From Pseudomonas phage 41C: 37,859 bases of DNA. The notes beneath the pieces are model-generated. The model worked only from the letters and a program-made list of their open reading frames with translations, was not told the DNA's origin and did not search any database. Both the position numbers and the translations under genes were made by a program. The DNA lies in the sequence record PV880424.1; one strand, written 5' to 3'. Of the stretch, positions 41 to 6,997 are shown one piece after another (positions within the stretch are counted from its first letter, which is position 1; every line of letters begins with the position of its first letter).

Positions 41-925
41 ATGATGGCCGAATATACAAACTGCTTCGGGGCCTATTGCGACCAGACCTACGGCGGTATC
101 AGAGGTGAGTGGGTTACCGGGGTTGGCCACCTGCTGGTATCTACCCACGAGAATACCTCTGGTAAACTGGTGGAGTTCCTTAACAGTGATTTGGTCAACA
201 GGATTACCGACGGTGGTATCCTCTCGGCCTCTATCGACTGGCCTACTCGTTGGTGGGATTACAATGATGATCTCAAGAATCTCAATGATCCCGACCACTT
301 CTCTCCCCCAGGACGCCGGCAGGCAGTATATGTACGGGTGGACCTCAGGAAGAACGCATCGGCCATCATCTGTGCCCTCCGAATGGGCGATCGTCTGTGG
401 TGCGTAGGTGACTCCATGCGTCGCTATACCCAGGAAAATCGTGATAAGGTCCTGGGATGCAATGCAGAGATCCTCACCCTCGCGGCTTGTGCCCAGGTAG
501 GCAGCACTGCTCATTGCGATAGCTATCCGGCGATGTTCCCGGTGACTGCCGGTGAATACCGGGAGGGCTGCGAGAGCCACGGCTGGGAGGTGGATGACAG
601 CTACATAAGCGAAGTCATGGATGGTATCGTAGGTGGGTACAAGGAGATCACCTACTTCGATATCAAGAGCATCCATGGGCGGACTCGCGAAGAGTTCAAG
701 GACAAGCTCAAGCATCACGACGCTGAGTTGTGGCAAGGGTATACCAAGGACGATTACCTGATCGAATGCGACGGGCTCGAAGGTGTACACAATGATCGGA
801 TCCTCTCCATCATGGCACCTATCACTATCGACGTAGGTGACCCAGGTCGGGAAAGGTCTGAGACCGTACCCACCAGTCCCTACAGCATCCCCGAAATCCT
901 CGAAAAACTGGAGACTATGCAATGA
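41..925 (+). CDS. hypothetical protein, first gene of the amidoligase/GATase/ATP-grasp cluster
   Basis: 294-aa ORF with ATG start. It is co-directional with and abuts the next gene (4-nt overlap). No motif I can name. Confidence 0.45.
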   Translation: MMAEYTNCFGAYCDQTYGGIRGEWVTGVGHLLVSTHENTSGKLVEFLNSDLVNRITDGGILSASIDWPTRWWDYNDDLKNLNDPDHFSPPGRRQAVYVRVDLRKNASAIICALRMGDRLWCVGDSMRRYTQENRDKVLGCNAEILTLAACAQVGSTAHCDSYPAMFPVTAGEYREGCESHGWEVDDSYISEVMDGIVGGYKEITYFDIKSIHGRTREEFKDKLKHHDAELWQGYTKDDYLIECDGLEGVHNDRILSIMAPITIDVGDPGRERSETVPTSPYSIPEILEKLETMQ

Positions 926-1722
926 ACAACGCAATCCCCCTGATCGGTGCAGATCCCGAAGTTTTCGTCGGCTACGACCGTAACCCCCAGAGCGTCATCG
1001 GCTTCATCGGTGGAACCAAGGAAGCTCCCTTGGCTGTAGCCGGTGGTGCCGTCCAGGAAGACAACGTTCTTCTGGAGTACAACATCGACCCGGCCAGCAC
1101 CAAGGAAGAGTTCGTCAAGCGGATCATTTCCGTTCGACTCCTGGGTGCCCAGATGCTCCACCCCTTCGGCATGAACATCATCGAGAACCTGTCGTCTCAC
1201 CTGTACGACGAGGAACTCCTCCGCAGCTTCGGTCCCCAGGCTTACGTCTTCGGTTGCGAGCCGGACTACAACTGCTGGACTCGTCGTCAGAACGTGATGC
1301 CGAAGGATGCCCCTCCGACCCTGCGCACTGCTGGCGGCCACGTCCATATCGGCTTCAGCCACATCGAGCGAGTCACCAAGGCGAACACCCGCGAGGTCAT
1401 GCAGATGTGTGACTACCTCCTGGGCCTGGCGTCTGTCATCCTCGACGGTGACACCCAGCGTAAGAAGCTGTACGGAAAGGCTGGCGCAATGCGCTATAAG
1501 CCCTACGGCGGCGAGTACCGTAGCCTGTCGAACTTCTGGATCTTCTCTGTCGATCTGACCGAGTGGGTCTATGAAATGGCAGTGCGAGCCTACACCTCCA
1601 AGCACCTCCTGGAGGAATACAAGTCGATCGTATCCGGTGATGAAGTCCAGCGGATCATCAACGAGAACGACGGCGCTGCGGCGGTAGCTGCACTTAAAGC
1701 GCTGGGGGTGGTATATGAATGA
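922..1722 (+). CDS. putative carboxylate-amine ligase (glutamine synthetase fold, GCS2/amidoligase-like), paralogue A
   Basis: N-terminal IGADPEVFVG resembles the G-x-E-x-E beta-strand of GS-fold ligases. GGHVHIGF resembles the HVHVG motif of YbdK-type ligases. Start overlaps the upstream gene by 4 nt. Confidence 0.4.
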   Translation: MNNAIPLIGADPEVFVGYDRNPQSVIGFIGGTKEAPLAVAGGAVQEDNVLLEYNIDPASTKEEFVKRIISVRLLGAQMLHPFGMNIIENLSSHLYDEELLRSFGPQAYVFGCEPDYNCWTRRQNVMPKDAPPTLRTAGGHVHIGFSHIERVTKANTREVMQMCDYLLGLASVILDGDTQRKKLYGKAGAMRYKPYGGEYRSLSNFWIFSVDLTEWVYEMAVRAYTSKHLLEEYKSIVSGDEVQRIINENDGAAAVAALKALGVVYE

Positions 1723-2284
1723 CCTGAACAATCGCCATCGGTTGGCCGGGGACTTCAACATGTACTACTCCTCCACCTATGCCTTCTTCCGGGTGGACGG
1801 CGAGCCTCGGGTAGTGTACGTGGATGATACCGAGTCCATTGGTGACGATCGTCAATTCGACGGGTTTCGTCTCCTTGGCAACGTGTACCGCCCCGACGGC
1901 AGTAACTACTACGGTGGGGTTGTCTACAGCGAGGTAGAAAGCGTGCGGCCCTCCAGTGGGTACTATGACGTCTTTGGCCGTGGGGTTCGTGATACCTATG
2001 TATCCTTCCTCGTGAACAATCGTACCCAGCGCAAGGGTGTAGATCCCCGGAACATCTTGCTGAATCATGGCCAACAGGCTATCACCGGCGAAATGATGAT
2101 CCGAATCTTCACCCAGGCCGAGGAAATGATCTCTGCTCCCTCCCACCGGGACTTCTTCATCAAGGATGGGGTTGTACACTGGAAGGGAGTGAAGGTTGGC
2201 CAGATAGTGGATGGGCGGCTGTCCGCAGATGAACAATTCAAGAACCAGGAGGACTTGCTATGTCAGTTATTGGCACACAGATAG
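1715..2284 (+). CDS. hypothetical protein
   Basis: 189-aa ORF, translationally coupled on both sides (overlaps 8 nt upstream, 25 nt downstream). No recognisable motif. Confidence 0.4.
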   Translation: MNDLNNRHRLAGDFNMYYSSTYAFFRVDGEPRVVYVDDTESIGDDRQFDGFRLLGNVYRPDGSNYYGGVVYSEVESVRPSSGYYDVFGRGVRDTYVSFLVNNRTQRKGVDPRNILLNHGQQAITGEMMIRIFTQAEEMISAPSHRDFFIKDGVVHWKGVKVGQIVDGRLSADEQFKNQEDLLCQLLAHR

Positions 2285-5337: not shown

Positions 5338-6222
5338 ATGTTCTATATCTATAAAGGTGCCCGCCCCTCTGCTGGTGCTGTCGCTCTTCGTAACGCCCTG
5401 GGTGCTCGAATCCTTCGCTCCGAGGGGTCTACCTATCGGGGTCGTGCGGGTACTGCGGTAATCAACTGGGGTACCGTTGGTGCAGAGGCTCACCGACTCC
5501 GGGATATTGCCCCTGTGTTCCTCAACGACCCGGCAGTTGTTCACCGCTGCTCTAACAAGCTGGAGTTCTTCCGCCACTTCGAGGCCAATGCTCCCCACCT
5601 GATTCCTCGTTGGACCGAGCGCTGGGAAGATGCCTTGGGTGTACTCAATATCTCTGGTCGCATGTATGCACGTACCGATCTGAACGGCCATAGCGGTCGC
5701 GGCATTCACCTGGTGTGTACTGTCAATGATGCAGAAGTTGCTGCGATCGATGCTCTCCGTAGACAGGGCCACTACCCTGTACACATCTACGGTCACACCC
5801 ACATCCCGGATGTTATCACCAGGGCACAACTGTTCACCCAGGGAATCGTCGGTAAGCGTACCGAGTTTCGAGCCCATGTGATCCGTGGGGAAGTAGTACT
5901 TCTCCAAGTCAAACTCCGCCGTGTTGCCAATGAAATGGTGACCAACGAAGGACAAAGCATCGTTCGTAACGTAGCTGGCGGCTGGGTCTACGGGGTTAAC
6001 GATGCAATGGACCGTGATGGTGCCGAGCAGGCTATGTCGGCAGCGGCAGAGGCTATCCAGGTAGCTGGACTGGATTTCGGTGCAGTAGATATCATCTTCC
6101 AGCACGCCACTGGCCGAGCGTTTGTCTTGGAGATCAACACCGCCCCAGGGCTGGACGCTGAAGGCAGCGCACTGGAGGCATACGTCAAGGGCTTCAACAA
6201 AATCTTCGAGGAGACTATCTAA
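5338..6222 (+). CDS. ATP-grasp ligase, RimK-like
   Basis: NGHSGRGIHLV resembles a glycine-rich ATP-grasp loop. C-terminal FGAVDIIFQHATGRAFVLEINTAPGL closely resembles the RimK GLDxxGVDxL...EVNxSPGL segment. RBS AGGAGA upstream. Confidence 0.7.
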   Translation: MFYIYKGARPSAGAVALRNALGARILRSEGSTYRGRAGTAVINWGTVGAEAHRLRDIAPVFLNDPAVVHRCSNKLEFFRHFEANAPHLIPRWTERWEDALGVLNISGRMYARTDLNGHSGRGIHLVCTVNDAEVAAIDALRRQGHYPVHIYGHTHIPDVITRAQLFTQGIVGKRTEFRAHVIRGEVVLLQVKLRRVANEMVTNEGQSIVRNVAGGWVYGVNDAMDRDGAEQAMSAAAEAIQVAGLDFGAVDIIFQHATGRAFVLEINTAPGLDAEGSALEAYVKGFNKIFEETI

Positions 6223-6620
6223 TGGCTGTTCGTGTTTTCGTTTATGGTACTCTCCTGTCAGGTTTGTACAACCACTACCTTCTGGAAGGGGCCGAGTTCA
6301 TCGGCAATGCTGTATCCTGCGAGCGGGGTCTGATGTACTCCGCTGGCGGCTTCCCCATCCTCTCCTTCGCCTCCCGTGCTGACCTCATCGTAGGCGAAAT
6401 CTGGCAACTCCCCGAGGGCGAAGCGGGGGATGAAATGCTGGAGAACCTGGATGCCCTAGAGGGTTATCCGGGTTGGTATGATCGTACCCTCAAGGATTTC
6501 CGAATCAATGGGGAACGCATCAAGGCCCTGGTGTACCATCAGGATAGCCACATGGCGATGGATATCGTCCAAGATGGCGACTGGAAGGCACACCTGGCAA
6601 AACGACAAGGAGCAGTATAA
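6222..6620 (+). CDS. gamma-glutamyl cyclotransferase (AIG2/GGCT family)
   Basis: N-terminal VFVYGTLLSG (YGTL signature) plus downstream LDALEGYPGWYDR (catalytic Glu context). 132 aa. Start codon overlaps the ATP-grasp stop (ATGG/TAATGG). Confidence 0.7.
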   Translation: MAVRVFVYGTLLSGLYNHYLLEGAEFIGNAVSCERGLMYSAGGFPILSFASRADLIVGEIWQLPEGEAGDEMLENLDALEGYPGWYDRTLKDFRINGERIKALVYHQDSHMAMDIVQDGDWKAHLAKRQGAV

Positions 6621-6997
6621 TGAACGAAATGACCGTAGACAAAGCAGTAGAAGTCTACCGCGACACCCCGAACACCTTCGGACACCAAGAACTACATGCC
6701 CAGAAGATGCTCCTCAAGGAGATCCTGGGCCTTGTAGCTTCCCAGCGACACCTCCAAGACTCCATCGAGATCTCCAAGATTCCGGAGGCCTCGGACAGTC
6801 CCGAGACCAGCTACGGTGGGTACTGTGACGAATCCATTGGCATTCGCTTCATGTGGGAGCGACTGAAGAAAATCGAGGATCGTCTTCGGGAACTGGAGGA
6901 GGTCTACGGTACCTTCGTAACAACTCCCTATAAAACCCTACCGGGCAACGTGAATGCTGTACCAAGCCTGGTTCTCAAGAGTCAACTGGAGGGATAA
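6620..6997 (+). CDS. hypothetical protein
   Basis: 125-aa ORF translationally coupled to GGCT (TAATG) and abutting the primase start. Confidence 0.4.
   Translation: MNEMTVDKAVEVYRDTPNTFGHQELHAQKMLLKEILGLVASQRHLQDSIEISKIPEASDSPETSYGGYCDESIGIRFMWERLKKIEDRLRELEEVYGTFVTTPYKTLPGNVNAVPSLVLKSQLEG

What the first reader, a model, noticed from the sequence alone, without database searches (positions are those of the whole stretch)
41..6997. Phage-encoded amidoligase / GATase-II / RimK-like ATP-grasp / GGCT cluster: candidate peptide-tagging or novel-metabolite system
Nine co-directional, translationally coupled genes occupy the first 6.6 kb. They encode:
- two paralogous glutamine-synthetase-fold COOH-NH2 ligases (922-1722 with IGADPEVF...GGHVHIG; 2260-3435 with FGFEVELEG...STHLHMD);
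- an Ntn-type glutamine amidotransferase that starts Met-Cys-Gly and carries an extra C-terminal Cys4 ribbon;
- a RimK-like ATP-grasp ligase (VDIIFQ...VLEINTAPGL);
- a gamma-glutamyl cyclotransferase (VFVYGTL);
- three proteins with no recognisable domain.

This combination of ligases that form amide or isopeptide bonds, an amidotransferase and a gamma-glutamyl-removing enzyme looks like a pathway that builds and trims a gamma-glutamyl or poly-amino-acid modification. The target could be a protein C-terminus or a small molecule. Comparative genomics has predicted such phage gene sets, but I am not aware of any defined function. In a lytic phage it could modify a virion or host protein (for example ribosomal protein S6, the RimK target) or make a host-takeover or anti-defence metabolite.
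Basis: partly seen in the sequence, partly recalled or inferred. Interest (0 to 1): 0.85.

Follow-up and report, generated by a model that had tools for sequence, protein, structure and literature searches.

The report
Known phage amidoligase gene cassette
This is the already-described block of glutamate-handling ligase and hydrolase genes that LUZ24-like and many other short-tailed phages of Gram-negative bacteria carry next to their DNA-replication genes; the enzyme assignments are real, but what the pathway makes or modifies has still not been shown.

Summary
The window is a Bruynoghevirus, a LUZ24/PaP3-like Pseudomonas aeruginosa podophage (98.5% identity to sequenced isolates). The nine co-directional genes at 41-6997 are real.

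Domain calls that hold up:
- ORF4 is Amidoligase_2.
- ORF5 is a class-II (Ntn) glutaminase with all catalytic residues and a C-terminal zinc ribbon.
- ORF7 is a RimK/LysX-family ATP-grasp ligase.
- ORF8 is a GGACT/AIG2 cyclotransferase.

The cluster is not new. It is the "phiEco32-type" amidoligase cassette predicted by Iyer et al. (2009) and Hardies et al. (2013), who named LUZ24 and PaP3. The four core enzymes co-occur in about 310-340 of 50,697 phage genomes and in at least 523 viral contigs, almost always in the same order and upstream of primase/helicase.

What I add:
- ORF3 belongs to a universal, non-enzymatic, Pfam-less family (1,411 clusters) that always sits between the two ligases.
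- Many lineages add a Peptidase_C26 gamma-glutamyl hydrolase.
- DUF7195 (ORF6) is shared with phiEco32.

I found no experimental function. I favour a cytoplasmic gamma-glutamyl "build-and-trim" pathway acting on a small amine, with polyamines as the leading candidate. Peptidoglycan-precursor modification and protein tagging are the rivals.

The parts
1..925 (+). ORF1 (LUZ24 gp15 family, phrog_7973). Function unknown and specific to the lineage. Its 5' end lies outside the window; the in-window ATG is at 41.
   Evidence: ORF; the PaCe homologue starts 32 nt upstream, and the PHROG profile aligns from position 22; found only in 93 Pseudomonas LUZ24-like records; no Pfam, NCBIfam or PDB match; no profile link to Peptidase_C26 or to phiEco32 gp87.
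922..1722 (+). ORF2: COOH-NH2 ligase type 2 (PF14395), with a glutamate-cysteine-ligase / glutamine-synthetase fold. Predicted ATP-dependent carboxylate-amine ligase.
1715..2284 (+). ORF3: the "X" family, a conserved non-enzymatic protein built of SH3/Sm-like beta-barrels. It always lies between the two ligases and is inferred to be an adaptor or scaffold.
2260..3435 (+). ORF4: Amidoligase_2 (PF12224) catalytic domain (about residues 25-235), followed by a lineage-variable C-terminal helical extension.
   Evidence: 23.2 bits; cut-off 22. (PHROG 7631, 5e-197); invariant G31-x-E33-x-E35, S55, E61, H98, H100, Y175, G187-x-x-E190-x-R192; no solved relative by sequence. The fold was not tested by a model.
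3447..4979 (+). ORF5: class-II (Ntn) glutamine amidotransferase / gamma-glutamyl amidohydrolase domain (residues 1-~235), then a low-complexity linker and a lineage-variable C-terminal region.
   Evidence: GATase_6, 2e-26; weak GlmS, PurF and EgtC N-domain hits, with no synthase domain; conserved C2, R83, N109-G110 and D129, and a poorly conserved C-terminal half; the GlmS glutaminase domain is the nearest solved structure.
4842..4961 (+). C-terminal Cys-rich zinc-ribbon-like motif of ORF5 (C466-x2-C469 ... C498-x3-C502-x2-C505).
   Evidence: CxxC...CxxC tails occur on the amidotransferase in about half of the lineages (LUZ24-, phiEco32-, Pa11-, RIO-1- and Vibrio-type).
4989..5210 (+). ORF6: DUF7195 (PF23825), a small protein of unknown role. 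phiEco32-type cassettes carry it in the same slot.
   Evidence: 5e-19; phiEco32 gp82 and relatives match DUF7195 at 1e-17 to 1e-29, directly after the amidotransferase; same position in an NV1-like locus.
5211..5337 (+). The only sizeable intergenic gap. It folds into a long stable stem-loop just upstream of the ORF7 ribosome-binding site, and may mark a processing or regulatory site that splits the cluster into two translation blocks.
   Evidence: sequence.: -48.4 kcal/mol, z = -3.5; retained in three close relatives, which are too similar to show covariation; no Rfam family; no promoter or terminator signal above chance.
5338..6222 (+). ORF7: RimK/LysX-family ATP-grasp ligase, of the alpha-L-glutamate-ligase type.
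   Evidence: PHROG 2599, 2e-102. MptN 2e-5 and RimK family 8e-4, both below cut-offs; invariant ATP-grasp residues, including the E-x-R and E-x-N motifs; profile against PDB gives RimK 9e-15, cyanophycin synthetase 7e-9, LysX 4e-8 and Ddl 1e-7.
6222..6620 (+). ORF8: gamma-glutamylamine cyclotransferase-like protein (GGACT/AIG2 family).
   Evidence: 4e-20; the closest structures are YkqA, GGACT (3jub/2kl2) and YtfP. The YGTL motif is present, and E80 aligns with the Glu of the GGACT LDDFE motif.
6620..6997 (+). ORF9 (phrog_8197): function unknown and lineage-specific. It fills the space up to the primase/helicase gene, which starts at 6998.
   Evidence: homologues only in LUZ24-like loci, with no profile link to the phiEco32 proteins in the same position.

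Best explanation
The region is the LUZ24-type copy of the conserved "phiEco32-type" phage amidoligase cassette. I read it as a cytoplasmic pathway, co-expressed with the replication genes, that builds and trims glutamate-based amide bonds on a small amine-bearing substrate common to Gram-negative hosts.

Proposed steps (all inferred from family chemistry; none shown biochemically):
1. ORF2 (glutamate-cysteine-ligase-like) and ORF4 (Amidoligase_2) each use ATP to activate a carboxylate as an acyl-phosphate and couple it to an amine. The carboxylate is most simply the gamma-carboxyl of glutamate. The two enzymes act on two different acceptors or in two successive steps.
2. ORF3, a non-catalytic beta-barrel protein encoded between the two ligases and overlapping both genes, holds them or their substrate together.
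3. ORF7 (RimK/LysX type) adds an alpha-linked glutamate, or a similar amino acid, to a terminal carboxylate.
4. ORF5 (an Ntn glutaminase with an intact glutamine or gamma-glutamyl pocket but no synthase domain) either feeds ammonia from glutamine to a ligase or hydrolyses a gamma-glutamyl amide, as EgtC does.
5. ORF8 (GGACT type) releases the free amine from a gamma-glutamyl-amine as 5-oxoproline.

This is the logic of the Puu/Pau polyamine pathway, of ergothioneine (EgtA/EgtC) and of butirosin (BtrJ/BtrG): gamma-glutamylate, process, deglutamylate. My leading candidate substrate is a polyamine (putrescine or spermidine). This would control the pool that is needed for DNA condensation and that P. 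aeruginosa otherwise degrades by gamma-glutamylation.

Rough odds:
- The region is this cassette: 0.95.
- The chemistry is gamma-glutamyl or glutamate amide ligation and removal: 0.75.
- The substrate is a small molecule rather than a protein: 0.55-0.6.
- The substrate is specifically a polyamine: about 0.2.
For: Identity and unit character:
- The window is 98.5% identical to Bruynoghevirus genomes.
- The four core enzymes co-occur in 318, 314, 310 and 339 phage records.
- The order [C26]-ligase-X-ligase-GATase-ATP-grasp-(GGCT) is conserved in phiEco32, Pa11-like, RIO-1, Vibrio, Rhizobium and crAss-like phages and in 80 metagenomic viral loci.

Chemistry:
- The ORF2 model superposes best on gamma-glutamyl-forming ligases: YbdK-like, GshA/GshAB, plant GCL, GS and gamma-glutamylmethylamide synthetase.
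- ORF5 keeps the Arg and Asp that bind the alpha-carboxylate and alpha-amino groups of Gln or gamma-Glu, plus the Cys nucleophile and the oxyanion Asn-Gly. It has no conserved acceptor domain.
- ORF8 is of the GGACT type and has the catalytic-position Glu.
- Sister lineages add a Peptidase_C26 protein whose best named relatives are gamma-glutamyl-CDP-amidate hydrolase and PuuD.
- ORF7 is closest to RimK, MptN and LysX.
- So up to three different gamma-glutamyl-removing enzymes accompany three ligases.

Small-molecule lean: the characterised relatives of five of the six enzyme types act on small molecules. These are GCL/YbdK, EgtC, PuuD/Cj1417, GGACT/BtrG and MptN/CofF (established knowledge of those families).

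Polyamine lead:
- The host Pau/Puu pathway is exactly a GS-like ligase plus a C26 hydrolase.
- The bactericidal early protein gp9 of LUZ24 bound the host gamma-glutamylpolyamine synthetase PauA2/SpuB in a yeast two-hybrid screen. This was not confirmed (PMC4635203).
- Putrescine is limiting for another P. aeruginosa phage (PMC11898732).

Context:
- The cassette always lies in the replication and nucleotide module, next to primase/helicase, DNA polymerase, MazG, ThyX, glutaredoxin or RNR genes.
- It occupies about 15% of a 45-kb genome, which argues for a role in productive replication rather than an accessory trait.
Against: - No step has been shown biochemically for any member of the cassette, and I found no experimental paper.
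- Three ligases plus a dedicated non-catalytic partner (ORF3), zinc ribbons and lineage-variable C-terminal extensions on ORF4 and ORF5 are more elaborate than a Puu-like pathway needs. They are features more typical of systems that recognise macromolecules.
- The polyamine link rests on one unconfirmed two-hybrid hit of a different LUZ24 protein and on analogy.
- LUZ24-type cassettes lack the C26 hydrolase.
- The specialists who defined the cassette favoured cell-wall peptide modification.
- Building and trimming enzymes in one operon could also mean that the hydrolases act on unrelated host compounds.
Confidence: 0.4

Rival explanations
1. Peptidoglycan-precursor modification, the hypothesis in the literature. 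The three ligases would add or amidate residues on the stem peptide of cytoplasmic UDP-MurNAc-peptide or lipid II, and the hydrolases would recycle murein peptides. This would change the wall of the infected cell, for example to block superinfection or to tune lysis.
For: - This reading is attributed to Iyer 2009 and Hardies 2013 and repeated in PMC5498523, PMC6256558 and PMC10580990.
- Stem peptides contain a gamma-glutamyl bond and free carboxylates and amines. From established knowledge, ATP-grasp enzymes (Ddl, the D-Asp ligase Aslfm) and glutamine amidotransferases (GatD, AsnB-type) modify peptidoglycan precursors.
- Every host seen in the rows displayed is Gram-negative.
- The substrate would be universal, which fits a cassette shared by phages of Proteobacteria and Bacteroidota.
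Against: - The ATP-grasp profile is much closer to RimK (9e-15) than to Ddl (1e-7).
- None of the proteins is a Mur-type ligase.
- GGACT-type enzymes need a free alpha-amino group on the gamma-glutamyl residue. The D-isoglutamate of the stem peptide lacks one, because it is N-acylated by L-Ala (established knowledge).
- The cassette is a fixed core of whole genera and sits in the replication module. Superinfection-exclusion genes are usually variable accessory genes.
- No experimental support was found.
Confidence: 0.2
2. Protein tagging. The ligases would attach glutamate or a short peptide to a C-terminus or lysine of a host or phage protein, in the manner of RimK on S6, PafA with Pup, or LysX with LysW. 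ORF5 and ORF8 would act as the de-tagging enzymes, and ORF3 as the substrate-recruiting subunit or as the substrate itself.
For: - ORF7 is in the RimK/LysX family, which has protein substrates.
- A universal non-catalytic beta-barrel partner, zinc ribbons on ORF5 and variable C-terminal extensions look like modules that recognise macromolecules.
- In many marine loci a small protein with a zinc ribbon and an acidic tail follows the ATP-grasp gene. In outline it recalls LysW.
- From memory, Pfam's note on Amidoligase_2 describes ligase plus thiol-peptidase or AIG2 pairs. That fits a reversible modification.
Against: - No Pup-like or LysW-like protein with a conserved C-terminal residue is present. 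ORF6 ends EDYFE, but its phiEco32 homologues end differently. ORF3 and the acidic-tail proteins have unconserved C-termini.
- ORF3 has no invariant Lys, Glu or Gln that could be a modification site. Only D13 and P79 are invariant.
- The Bruynoghevirus Pa223 cryo-EM paper mentions no modification.
- Hosts range from Pseudomonas to Bacteroidota, so a protein target would have to be extremely conserved or phage-encoded.
- Most characterised relatives of the removal enzymes act on small molecules.
Confidence: 0.2
3. Remodelling of the glutamyl tail of a cofactor, to support nucleotide synthesis. The cassette would lengthen, cap or shorten the poly-glutamate tail of folates or a similar glutamylated cofactor, and so channel one-carbon units to thymidylate and purine synthesis during replication.
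For: - The best NCBIfam hit of ORF7 is MptN, a pterin:alpha-L-glutamate ligase.
- From established knowledge, Peptidase_C26 is the family of folate gamma-glutamyl hydrolase, and it is present in many cassettes.
- The cassette sits beside ThyX, MazG, glutaredoxin and RNR genes in several phages.
Against: - All scores to MptN are far below the family cut-offs (23.8 bits against 350).
- There is no FolC-like enzyme.
- The idea does not explain two GS-fold ligases, ORF3 or the GGACT enzyme.
- The C26 proteins score better against gamma-glutamyl-CDP-amidate hydrolase and PuuD than a folate role would suggest.
- The case is purely contextual.
Confidence: 0.07
4. A known nucleotide-biosynthesis operon (purine or CTP type), or a chance neighbourhood of unrelated auxiliary genes.
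For: Purine synthesis also uses a class-II amidotransferase and ATP-grasp enzymes, and database annotations call ORF5 "amidophosphoribosyltransferase" or "GlmS".
Against: - ORF5 matches only the glutaminase domains of PurF and GlmS, and has neither a PRTase nor a SIS domain.
- ORF7 is RimK-like. PurT and PurK score only 4e-4 to 6e-3.
- Strict co-occurrence and conserved order across hundreds of genomes exclude chance.
Confidence: 0.02

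Closest known systems
phiEco32-type phage amidoligase cassette (Iyer, Abhiman, Burroughs & Aravind 2009; Hardies et al. 2013), also called the "peptidoglycan modification cassette"
   Same: - Same gene families in the same order: COOH-NH2_lig, X, Amidoligase_2, GATase-II, DUF7195, ATP-grasp and AIG2/GGCT.
- Same position upstream of primase/helicase.
- LUZ24 and PaP3 are listed as carriers in the literature.
   Different: - Nothing essential differs.
- The LUZ24-type copy lacks the Peptidase_C26 gene found in Pa11-, Vibrio-, Rhizobium-, crAss-like and most marine versions.
- It has lineage-specific ORF1 and ORF9.
Puu/Pau gamma-glutamylation pathway of polyamine catabolism (PuuA/PauA GS-like ligase plus PuuD/PauD C26 hydrolase), and the related Ipu and Tdn amine pathways
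   Same: - An ATP-dependent GS-superfamily ligase makes a gamma-glutamyl-amine, and a dedicated hydrolase later removes the gamma-glutamyl group.
- C26 proteins of sister cassettes hit PuuD.
- GGACT-type enzymes accept gamma-glutamyl-amines.
   Different: - There is no oxidase or dehydrogenase.
- The phage ligases are YbdK/GCL-like and Amidoligase_2, not type-I/III GS homologues.
- The cassette has an extra RimK-type ligase and the ORF3 adaptor.
- The LUZ24 copy has no C26.
Gamma-glutamyl cycle / glutathione metabolism (GshA, GshB, gamma-GT, GGCT)
   Same: A GCL-fold ligase (the best structural matches of ORF2), an ATP-grasp ligase, an Ntn-fold hydrolase and a gamma-glutamyl cyclotransferase occur together.
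   Different: - ORF7 is RimK-like, not GshB-like. GshAB scores only 3e-4.
- ORF5 is a Cys-Ntn amidotransferase, not a Thr-Ntn gamma-GT.
- ORF8 is of the GGACT type, not the GGCT or ChaC type.
- There is a second ligase and an adaptor.
Protecting-group pathways: ergothioneine EgtA/EgtC and butirosin BtrJ/BtrG
   Same: - EgtC is a stand-alone class-II amidotransferase that strips a gamma-glutamyl group. It is a weak NCBIfam hit of ORF5 (6e-7).
- BtrJ is an ATP-grasp enzyme that adds gamma-Glu, and BtrG is an AIG2/GGACT-type cyclotransferase that removes it.
   Different: The cassette has no sulfoxide synthase, methyltransferase, acyl-carrier protein or aminoglycoside genes. Only the add-then-remove logic is shared.
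Pupylation (PafA ligase, Dop deamidase, Pup) and RimK-S6 / LysX-LysW
   Same: - ORF7 is in the RimK/LysX family.
- Ligase and antagonistic hydrolase are encoded together.
   Different: - No Pup-like disordered tag with a GGQ or GGE end.
- No LysW-like EDWGE tail.
- No proteasome or lysine-biosynthesis genes.
- No protein target is identified.

Membership tests
phiEco32-type phage amidoligase cassette | COOH-NH2 ligase type 2, Amidoligase_2, a class-II amidotransferase and an ATP-grasp ligase occur together in one co-directional block of a phage genome. | tested here: met
   (this window); 310-339 records with the same genus breakdown.
phiEco32-type phage amidoligase cassette | Conserved gene order, with a ~190-230 aa unknown protein between the two ligases, and a location upstream of primase/helicase. 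| tested here: met
phiEco32-type phage amidoligase cassette | An AIG2/GGCT-family gene is associated with the block. | tested here: met
   ORF8. Present in 34 of 88 loci, many of which are truncated.
COOH-NH2_lig (PF14395) / glutamine-synthetase-GCL fold | Pfam score above the gathering cut-off, and a GS/GCL catalytic fold with conserved metal-binding and ATP-binding Glu, His and Arg residues. | tested here: met
   [not shown]
Amidoligase_2 (PF12224) | Pfam score above the gathering cut-off, with conserved E-x-E-x-E, H-x-H and G-T-x-E-F-R motifs. | tested here: met
   (23.2 against 22, a marginal pass). (motifs invariant in 44 homologues). The GS-like fold itself was not modelled, and no solved relative was found.
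Class-II (Ntn) glutamine amidotransferase | N-terminal Cys nucleophile after Met1, an oxyanion Asn-Gly, and the Arg and Asp that bind the glutamine backbone. | tested here: met
Class-II (Ntn) glutamine amidotransferase | A fused or partnered synthase (acceptor) domain that receives the ammonia, as in PurF, GlmS, AsnB and GltS. | tested here: not met
   The C-terminal half has no Pfam or NCBIfam domain and is not conserved between lineages. The protein may instead be an EgtC-like hydrolase, or it may feed a separate ligase.
RimK/LysX family of ATP-grasp ligases | ATP-grasp catalytic residues (Lys, E-x-R, and Mg-binding D and E-x-N), and closest profile similarity to RimK-family structures. | tested here: met
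   Single-sequence scores are below the NCBIfam and Pfam cut-offs, so this is a divergent member.
RimK/LysX family of ATP-grasp ligases | A defined acceptor: the S6 C-terminal Glu-Glu, or a LysW-type carrier with a conserved C-terminal Glu. | tested here: inconclusive
   No conserved C-terminal acceptor motif was found in ORF3, ORF6 or the acidic-tail proteins. Host S6 cannot be tested with these tools.
GGACT/AIG2 gamma-glutamylamine cyclotransferase | A Pfam GGACT match, the YGTL motif and the catalytic Glu. | tested here: met
   (73 bits against 22.8). E80 aligns with the Glu of the LDDFE motif in GGACT. That this Glu is the catalytic E82 is from memory.
Pupylation-like tagging system | A small, disordered tag protein ending in GGQ or GGE, encoded with the ligase and deamidase. 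| tested here: not met
   No such ORF in 1-7000. The small proteins ORF6 and ORF9 end EDYFE and QLEG.
Puu/Pau polyamine gamma-glutamylation pathway | A GS-like gamma-glutamyl-amine ligase together with a C26 hydrolase, an oxidase and an aldehyde dehydrogenase. | tested here: not met
   This window has no C26, oxidase or dehydrogenase. C26 is present only in sister lineages. The system may work like this pathway but is not a member.
Purine / amino-sugar biosynthesis operon (PurF, GlmS) | A PRTase or SIS synthase domain on the amidotransferase, and PurD/K/T-type ATP-grasp enzymes. | tested here: not met
Known anti-phage defence or counter-defence components (PADLOC) | A match to a PADLOC model. 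| tested here: not met
   The only hit was a spurious Cas1 match at E 0.002 on ORF3.

The most novel reading that the evidence does not exclude
The cassette is not a metabolite pathway but a new kind of reversible gamma-glutamyl (Pup-like) conjugation machine. The universal, Pfam-less beta-barrel protein (the ORF3 family, 1,411 clusters) would be the obligatory recognition subunit or carrier. It would bridge two unrelated GS-fold ligases to tag a macromolecule required for replication, either a replisome or nucleoid protein or a nucleic-acid-bound amine. ORF5 and ORF8 would be the erasers. This would make the cassette a phage-wide post-translational control system in about 0.6% of sequenced phages.
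Probability: 0.15. Interest if true: 0.85.

Novelty: already known. Interest (0 to 1): 0.42.

Why it matters
- The cassette takes about 15% of a 45-kb genome. It is fixed in whole genera of therapeutic Pseudomonas phages (Bruynoghevirus) and E. coli phages (Kuravirus), and it recurs in marine, rhizobial and crAss-like podophages.
- Seventeen years after it was predicted, no product or target is known.
- Solving it would assign function to two large uncharacterised ligase families (PF14395, PF12224), to a universal unnamed partner family and to DUF7195. It could also reveal how phages manage polyamines, cell-wall precursors or a new protein tag during replication.
- As a scan finding it is not a discovery. 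It re-detects a published prediction in a well-sequenced phage genus.

Tried and rejected
- **Literature.** Nine full-text searches and about a dozen papers yielded no experimental function. The two key papers (PMC3268129, PMC3754069) and the LUZ24 metabolomics paper are not held. A Klebsiella "amidoligase" fimbrial-modification paper turned out to concern an unrelated TupA-like ATP-grasp enzyme.
- **LysW-like carrier idea for ORF6 (C-terminal EDYFE).** Rejected. DUF7195 homologues in phiEco32-type phages end differently.
- **ORF1 as a divergent Peptidase_C26 or as a homologue of phiEco32 gp87.** No profile support (probability below 1%), and no Pfam, NCBIfam or PDB hit.
- **The two ligases as paralogues.** hhalign gives probability 2.4%.
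- **Fusion partners of the ORF3 family.** None among the top 150 of 1,411 clusters.
- **Bacterial, non-phage context.** The single "chromosomal" homologue, in P. tolaasii, is a whole LUZ24-like phage stretch.
- **PADLOC.** Nothing.
- **Promoters and terminators inside the cluster.** None above chance.
- **Zinc-ribbon complementarity.** The zinc ribbon on the amidotransferase and the stand-alone protein with a zinc ribbon and acidic tail are only partly complementary in their distribution, and the pattern is confounded by phylogeny.

Full report
**What the window is.** The first 7 kb are 96-98.5% identical to dozens of Pseudomonas aeruginosa podophages of the genus Bruynoghevirus, the LUZ24/PaP3 group. 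In all, 90 records match and 62 of them cover at least 80% of the query. In phage PaCe the same stretch is flanked upstream by small early genes, an SPFH/Band_7 protein and a 320-aa unknown. Downstream lie primase/helicase and the DNA polymerase genes. In LUZ24 numbering, ORF1-ORF4 are gp15-gp18.

**Checking the observation.**
- The nine + strand ORFs are at the stated coordinates.
- The junctions are ATGA-type or short overlaps (ORF1/2 4 nt, ORF2/3 8 nt, ORF3/4 25 nt, ORF7/8 1 nt, ORF8/9 1 nt), gaps of 11 and 9 nt (ORF4/5, ORF5/6), and no gap between ORF9 and the primase gene.
- The exception is a 127-nt gap before ORF7.
- Promoter-like and terminator-like matches are not above shuffled expectation in 1-9500, so the block reads as one operon together with the replication genes.
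- ORF1 is truncated by the window edge. Its homologue starts 32 nt further upstream, and the PHROG profile aligns only from position 22.
- The long antisense ORFs (880-1761 and 3432-4643 on the minus strand) are shadows of GC-rich coding sequence. They misled my own naive ORF caller.

**Domain verification.**
- ORF2: Pfam gives COOH-NH2_lig, E 1e-7.
- ORF4: Pfam gives Amidoligase_2, E 7e-5, just above the cut-off.
- ORF5: Pfam gives GATase_6/7, E 2e-26, covering residues 74-195 only.
- ORF6: Pfam gives DUF7195, E 5e-19.
- ORF8: Pfam gives GGACT, E 4e-20.
- ORF7: only sub-threshold ATP-grasp hits from the single sequence. However, a profile of 33 cassette homologues hits RimK structures at 9e-15 to 2e-13, cyanophycin synthetase at 7e-9, LysX at 4e-8 and Ddl at 1e-7. 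The ATP-grasp residues K74, E176-x-R178, K192, D251 and E265-x-N267 are invariant.
- Neither ligase has a solved relative detectable by sequence, even with profiles. I therefore modelled ORF2 with a 71-sequence alignment, which gave pLDDT 95.3.
- ORF5 keeps the Cys2 nucleophile, the Asn-Gly oxyanion hole, and the Arg83 and Asp129 that hold the amino-acid end of glutamine. Its C-terminal half is poorly conserved between lineages and has no synthase domain.
- A terminal CxxC...CxxC ribbon recurs on ORF5 homologues in about half of the lineages.
- ORF8 E80 aligns with the Glu of the LDDFE motif of human and mouse GGACT.
- The two ligases are not recognisable paralogues (hhalign probability 2.4%).

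**It is a known cassette.**
- Full-text searches show that this gene set was defined by Iyer et al. 2009 (Mol Biosyst 5:1636) and analysed by Hardies et al. 2013 for phage RIO-1.
- Later papers call it a seven-gene "peptidoglycan modification cassette". They list RIO-1, phiEco32, 7-11, PA11, tf, MR299-2, LUZ24, PaP3 and CW02 as carriers. They repeat the hypothesis that it alters the cell wall to prevent superinfection (PMC5498523, PMC6256558, PMC10580990).
- The genome papers on UFV-P2 and tf simply annotate the genes.
- I found no experimental test in any of the searches. The two founding papers are not in the library.

**Comparative anatomy (new work here).**
- In 50,697 phage genomes, tblastn finds ORF2 in 318 records, ORF4 in 314, ORF7 in 310 and the ORF5 glutaminase domain in 339. 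The genus breakdown is almost identical: Pseudomonas about 120, Escherichia about 94, Vibrio about 22, and Aeromonas, Proteus, Salmonella, Cronobacter and Pseudoalteromonas. Every host in the rows displayed for ORF2, ORF4 and ORF7 is Gram-negative.
- At least 523 IMG/VR contigs encode an ORF2 relative.
- I clustered the ORFs of 88 loci. This gives a near-universal order: [Peptidase_C26], COOH-NH2 ligase, X, Amidoligase_2, GATase-II, ATP-grasp, (GGCT). The block is usually followed within a few genes by primase/helicase and DNA polymerase. It is sometimes accompanied by MazG, ThyX, glutaredoxin or RNR genes.
- The C26 protein (46 loci) matches Pfam Peptidase_C26 at 4.5e-18. Its best NCBIfam relatives are gamma-glutamyl-CDP-amidate hydrolase and PuuD. 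It is absent from the LUZ24 and phiEco32 types.
- Those two types instead share DUF7195 directly after the amidotransferase, and each has a different ~320-aa unknown protein in front of the first ligase.

**The ORF3 family.**
- The proteins in the slot between the two ligases fall into four BLAST clusters. These clusters are homologous by profile-profile comparison (97-99.5% probability).
- An exhaustive HMM search finds 1,411 clusters at 50% identity, all stand-alone proteins of 190-250 aa. None has a Pfam family.
- The AF2 model is confident (pLDDT 87.8). It consists of small beta-barrels plus helices.
- Conservation is limited to structural-looking positions (D13, Y17, P79, G108, N113, R145), and there is no catalytic-looking constellation.
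- I therefore infer a non-enzymatic adaptor or scaffold, probably bound to the two ligases whose genes it overlaps. That inference has not been tested.

**Mechanism.**
- *Shown:* the folds, the catalytic residues and the strict linkage.
- *Inferred from family chemistry:* there are three ATP-dependent amide-forming ligases. One has its closest structural relatives among gamma-glutamyl-forming enzymes, and one belongs to the alpha-L-glutamate-ligase family. There are also up to three enzymes whose characterised relatives remove gamma-glutamyl groups: class-II amidotransferase (EgtC type), GGACT (BtrG type) and C26 (PuuD type).
- This add-then-remove logic is that of the Puu/Pau, Ipu and Tdn amine pathways, of ergothioneine and of butirosin.
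- Five of the six enzyme types have mainly small-molecule substrates among their characterised relatives. I therefore lean towards a small amine substrate (about 0.55-0.6).
- Polyamines are my leading specific candidate (about 0.2), for four reasons:
  1. The host Pau pathway uses exactly a GS-like ligase and a C26 hydrolase.
  2. LUZ24 early protein gp9 bound PauA2/SpuB in a two-hybrid screen that was not confirmed (PMC4635203).
  3. Putrescine limits replication of another P. aeruginosa phage (PMC11898732).
  4. The cassette travels with the replication genes.
- Arguments against this reading are the elaborate non-catalytic equipment (ORF3, zinc ribbons, variable C-terminal extensions), which suits recognition of a macromolecule, and the complete lack of biochemical data.

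**Rivals.**
- *Cell-wall hypothesis (0.2).* It has specialist backing, a universal substrate and an all-Gram-negative host list. Against it, the ATP-grasp enzyme is RimK-like rather than Ddl-like. GGACT chemistry needs a free alpha-amino group, which stem-peptide isoglutamate lacks. No peptidoglycan-binding domain is detectable. The cassette also behaves as a fixed core module rather than an accessory exclusion gene.
- *Protein tagging (0.2).* It fits RimK/LysX, PafA/Dop and the adaptor, but no tag or conserved acceptor motif exists.
- *Cofactor-tail remodelling (0.07).* The case is contextual only.
- *Standard nucleotide operon or chance neighbourhood.* Excluded.
- No PADLOC model matches.

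**Verdict.**
- The finding re-detects a published, still-unsolved phage cassette in a heavily sequenced genus.
- Its value lies in the open question, and in the sharper parts list given here: a universal adaptor family, an optional C26, the shared DUF7195, a RimK-type rather than Ddl-type ligase, and a confirmed GCL/GS fold.

Noticed in passing
window 5211-5337 (+): The only real intergenic gap in the cluster folds into a ~100-nt stem-loop (-48.4 kcal/mol, z = -3.5 against shuffles) that ends just before the ORF7 ribosome-binding site. It is retained in three close relatives, with one G-U to A-U change. No Rfam family matches. It could be an RNase processing site or a translational control element separating ORF1-6 from ORF7-9.
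   Followed up: partly
window 36758-37086 (-): There is a cluster of four tRNA genes: Pro(TGG), Tyr(GTA), Asp(GTC) and Asn(GTT). Three of the four have GUN anticodons, that is, the queuosine family. Also, from memory, P. aeruginosa makes Asn-tRNA by transamidation.
   Followed up: no
window 1-40 and L001 5969-6000: The window starts inside ORF1, so the in-window ATG at 41 is not the true start. Upstream in relatives lie a 320-aa unknown (phrog_9504) and an SPFH/Band_7 protein. Neither belongs to the universal cassette.
   Followed up: yes
window 880-1761 (-) and 3432-4643 (-): Long antisense ORFs (293 and 403 aa) lie opposite ORF2 and ORF5. They are shadow ORFs of GC-rich coding sequence and can displace the real genes in naive longest-ORF gene calling. 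This happened in my own clustering, where ORF2 appeared as "cnl*".
   Followed up: yes
L034, L036, L041-L047, L050-L054, L059, L063, L067, L070, L074, L086 (cluster 15; e.g. L034:8416-8604): In many marine-type cassettes the ATP-grasp gene is followed by a 56-80-aa protein with an N-terminal CxxC...CxxC zinc ribbon and a strongly acidic, unconserved tail. In outline it resembles LysW. Its distribution is partly complementary to the zinc ribbon fused to the amidotransferase. It could instead be a replication accessory protein.
   Followed up: partly
L088 (Pseudomonas tolaasii CP020369.1, 6,780,515-6,801,075): At least 20 kb (the stretch fetched) of an NV1/LUZ24-like phage genome, cassette included, sits near the end of a 6.86-Mb "chromosome" record of P. 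tolaasii. This is either carried or contaminating phage DNA joined in assembly, or an unusual carrier state for a phage group regarded as virulent.
   Followed up: no
L007 7532-7990; UFV-P2 ORF24 (PMC3890496): HNH homing endonuclease genes are inserted inside the cassette in some phages: between the amidotransferase and the first ligase in Rhizobium phage RHph_I3_11, and between Amidoligase_2 and the amidotransferase in UFV-P2. RIO-1 has a group I intron in the adjacent primase/helicase gene.
   Followed up: no
L058, L068, L072, L082, L087, L007, L077, L081: Some lineages carry two ATP-grasp genes or two class-II amidotransferase genes within one cassette. The crAss-like phage cr108_1 has a rearranged order (ATP-grasp first) with two extra unknown 300-335-aa proteins.
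   Followed up: no
window ~17000-19000: GC skew changes sign near 18 kb (the cumulative skew peaks there). This is consistent with the two convergent transcription units described for LUZ24-like genomes.
   Followed up: no
PMC4635203 (LUZ24 gp9; the gene lies upstream of this window): The bactericidal early protein gp9 of LUZ24 gave a yeast two-hybrid hit on the host gamma-glutamylpolyamine synthetase PauA2/SpuB. The hit was never confirmed. It is the only published datum I found that links this phage group to gamma-glutamyl-amine metabolism.
   Followed up: partly
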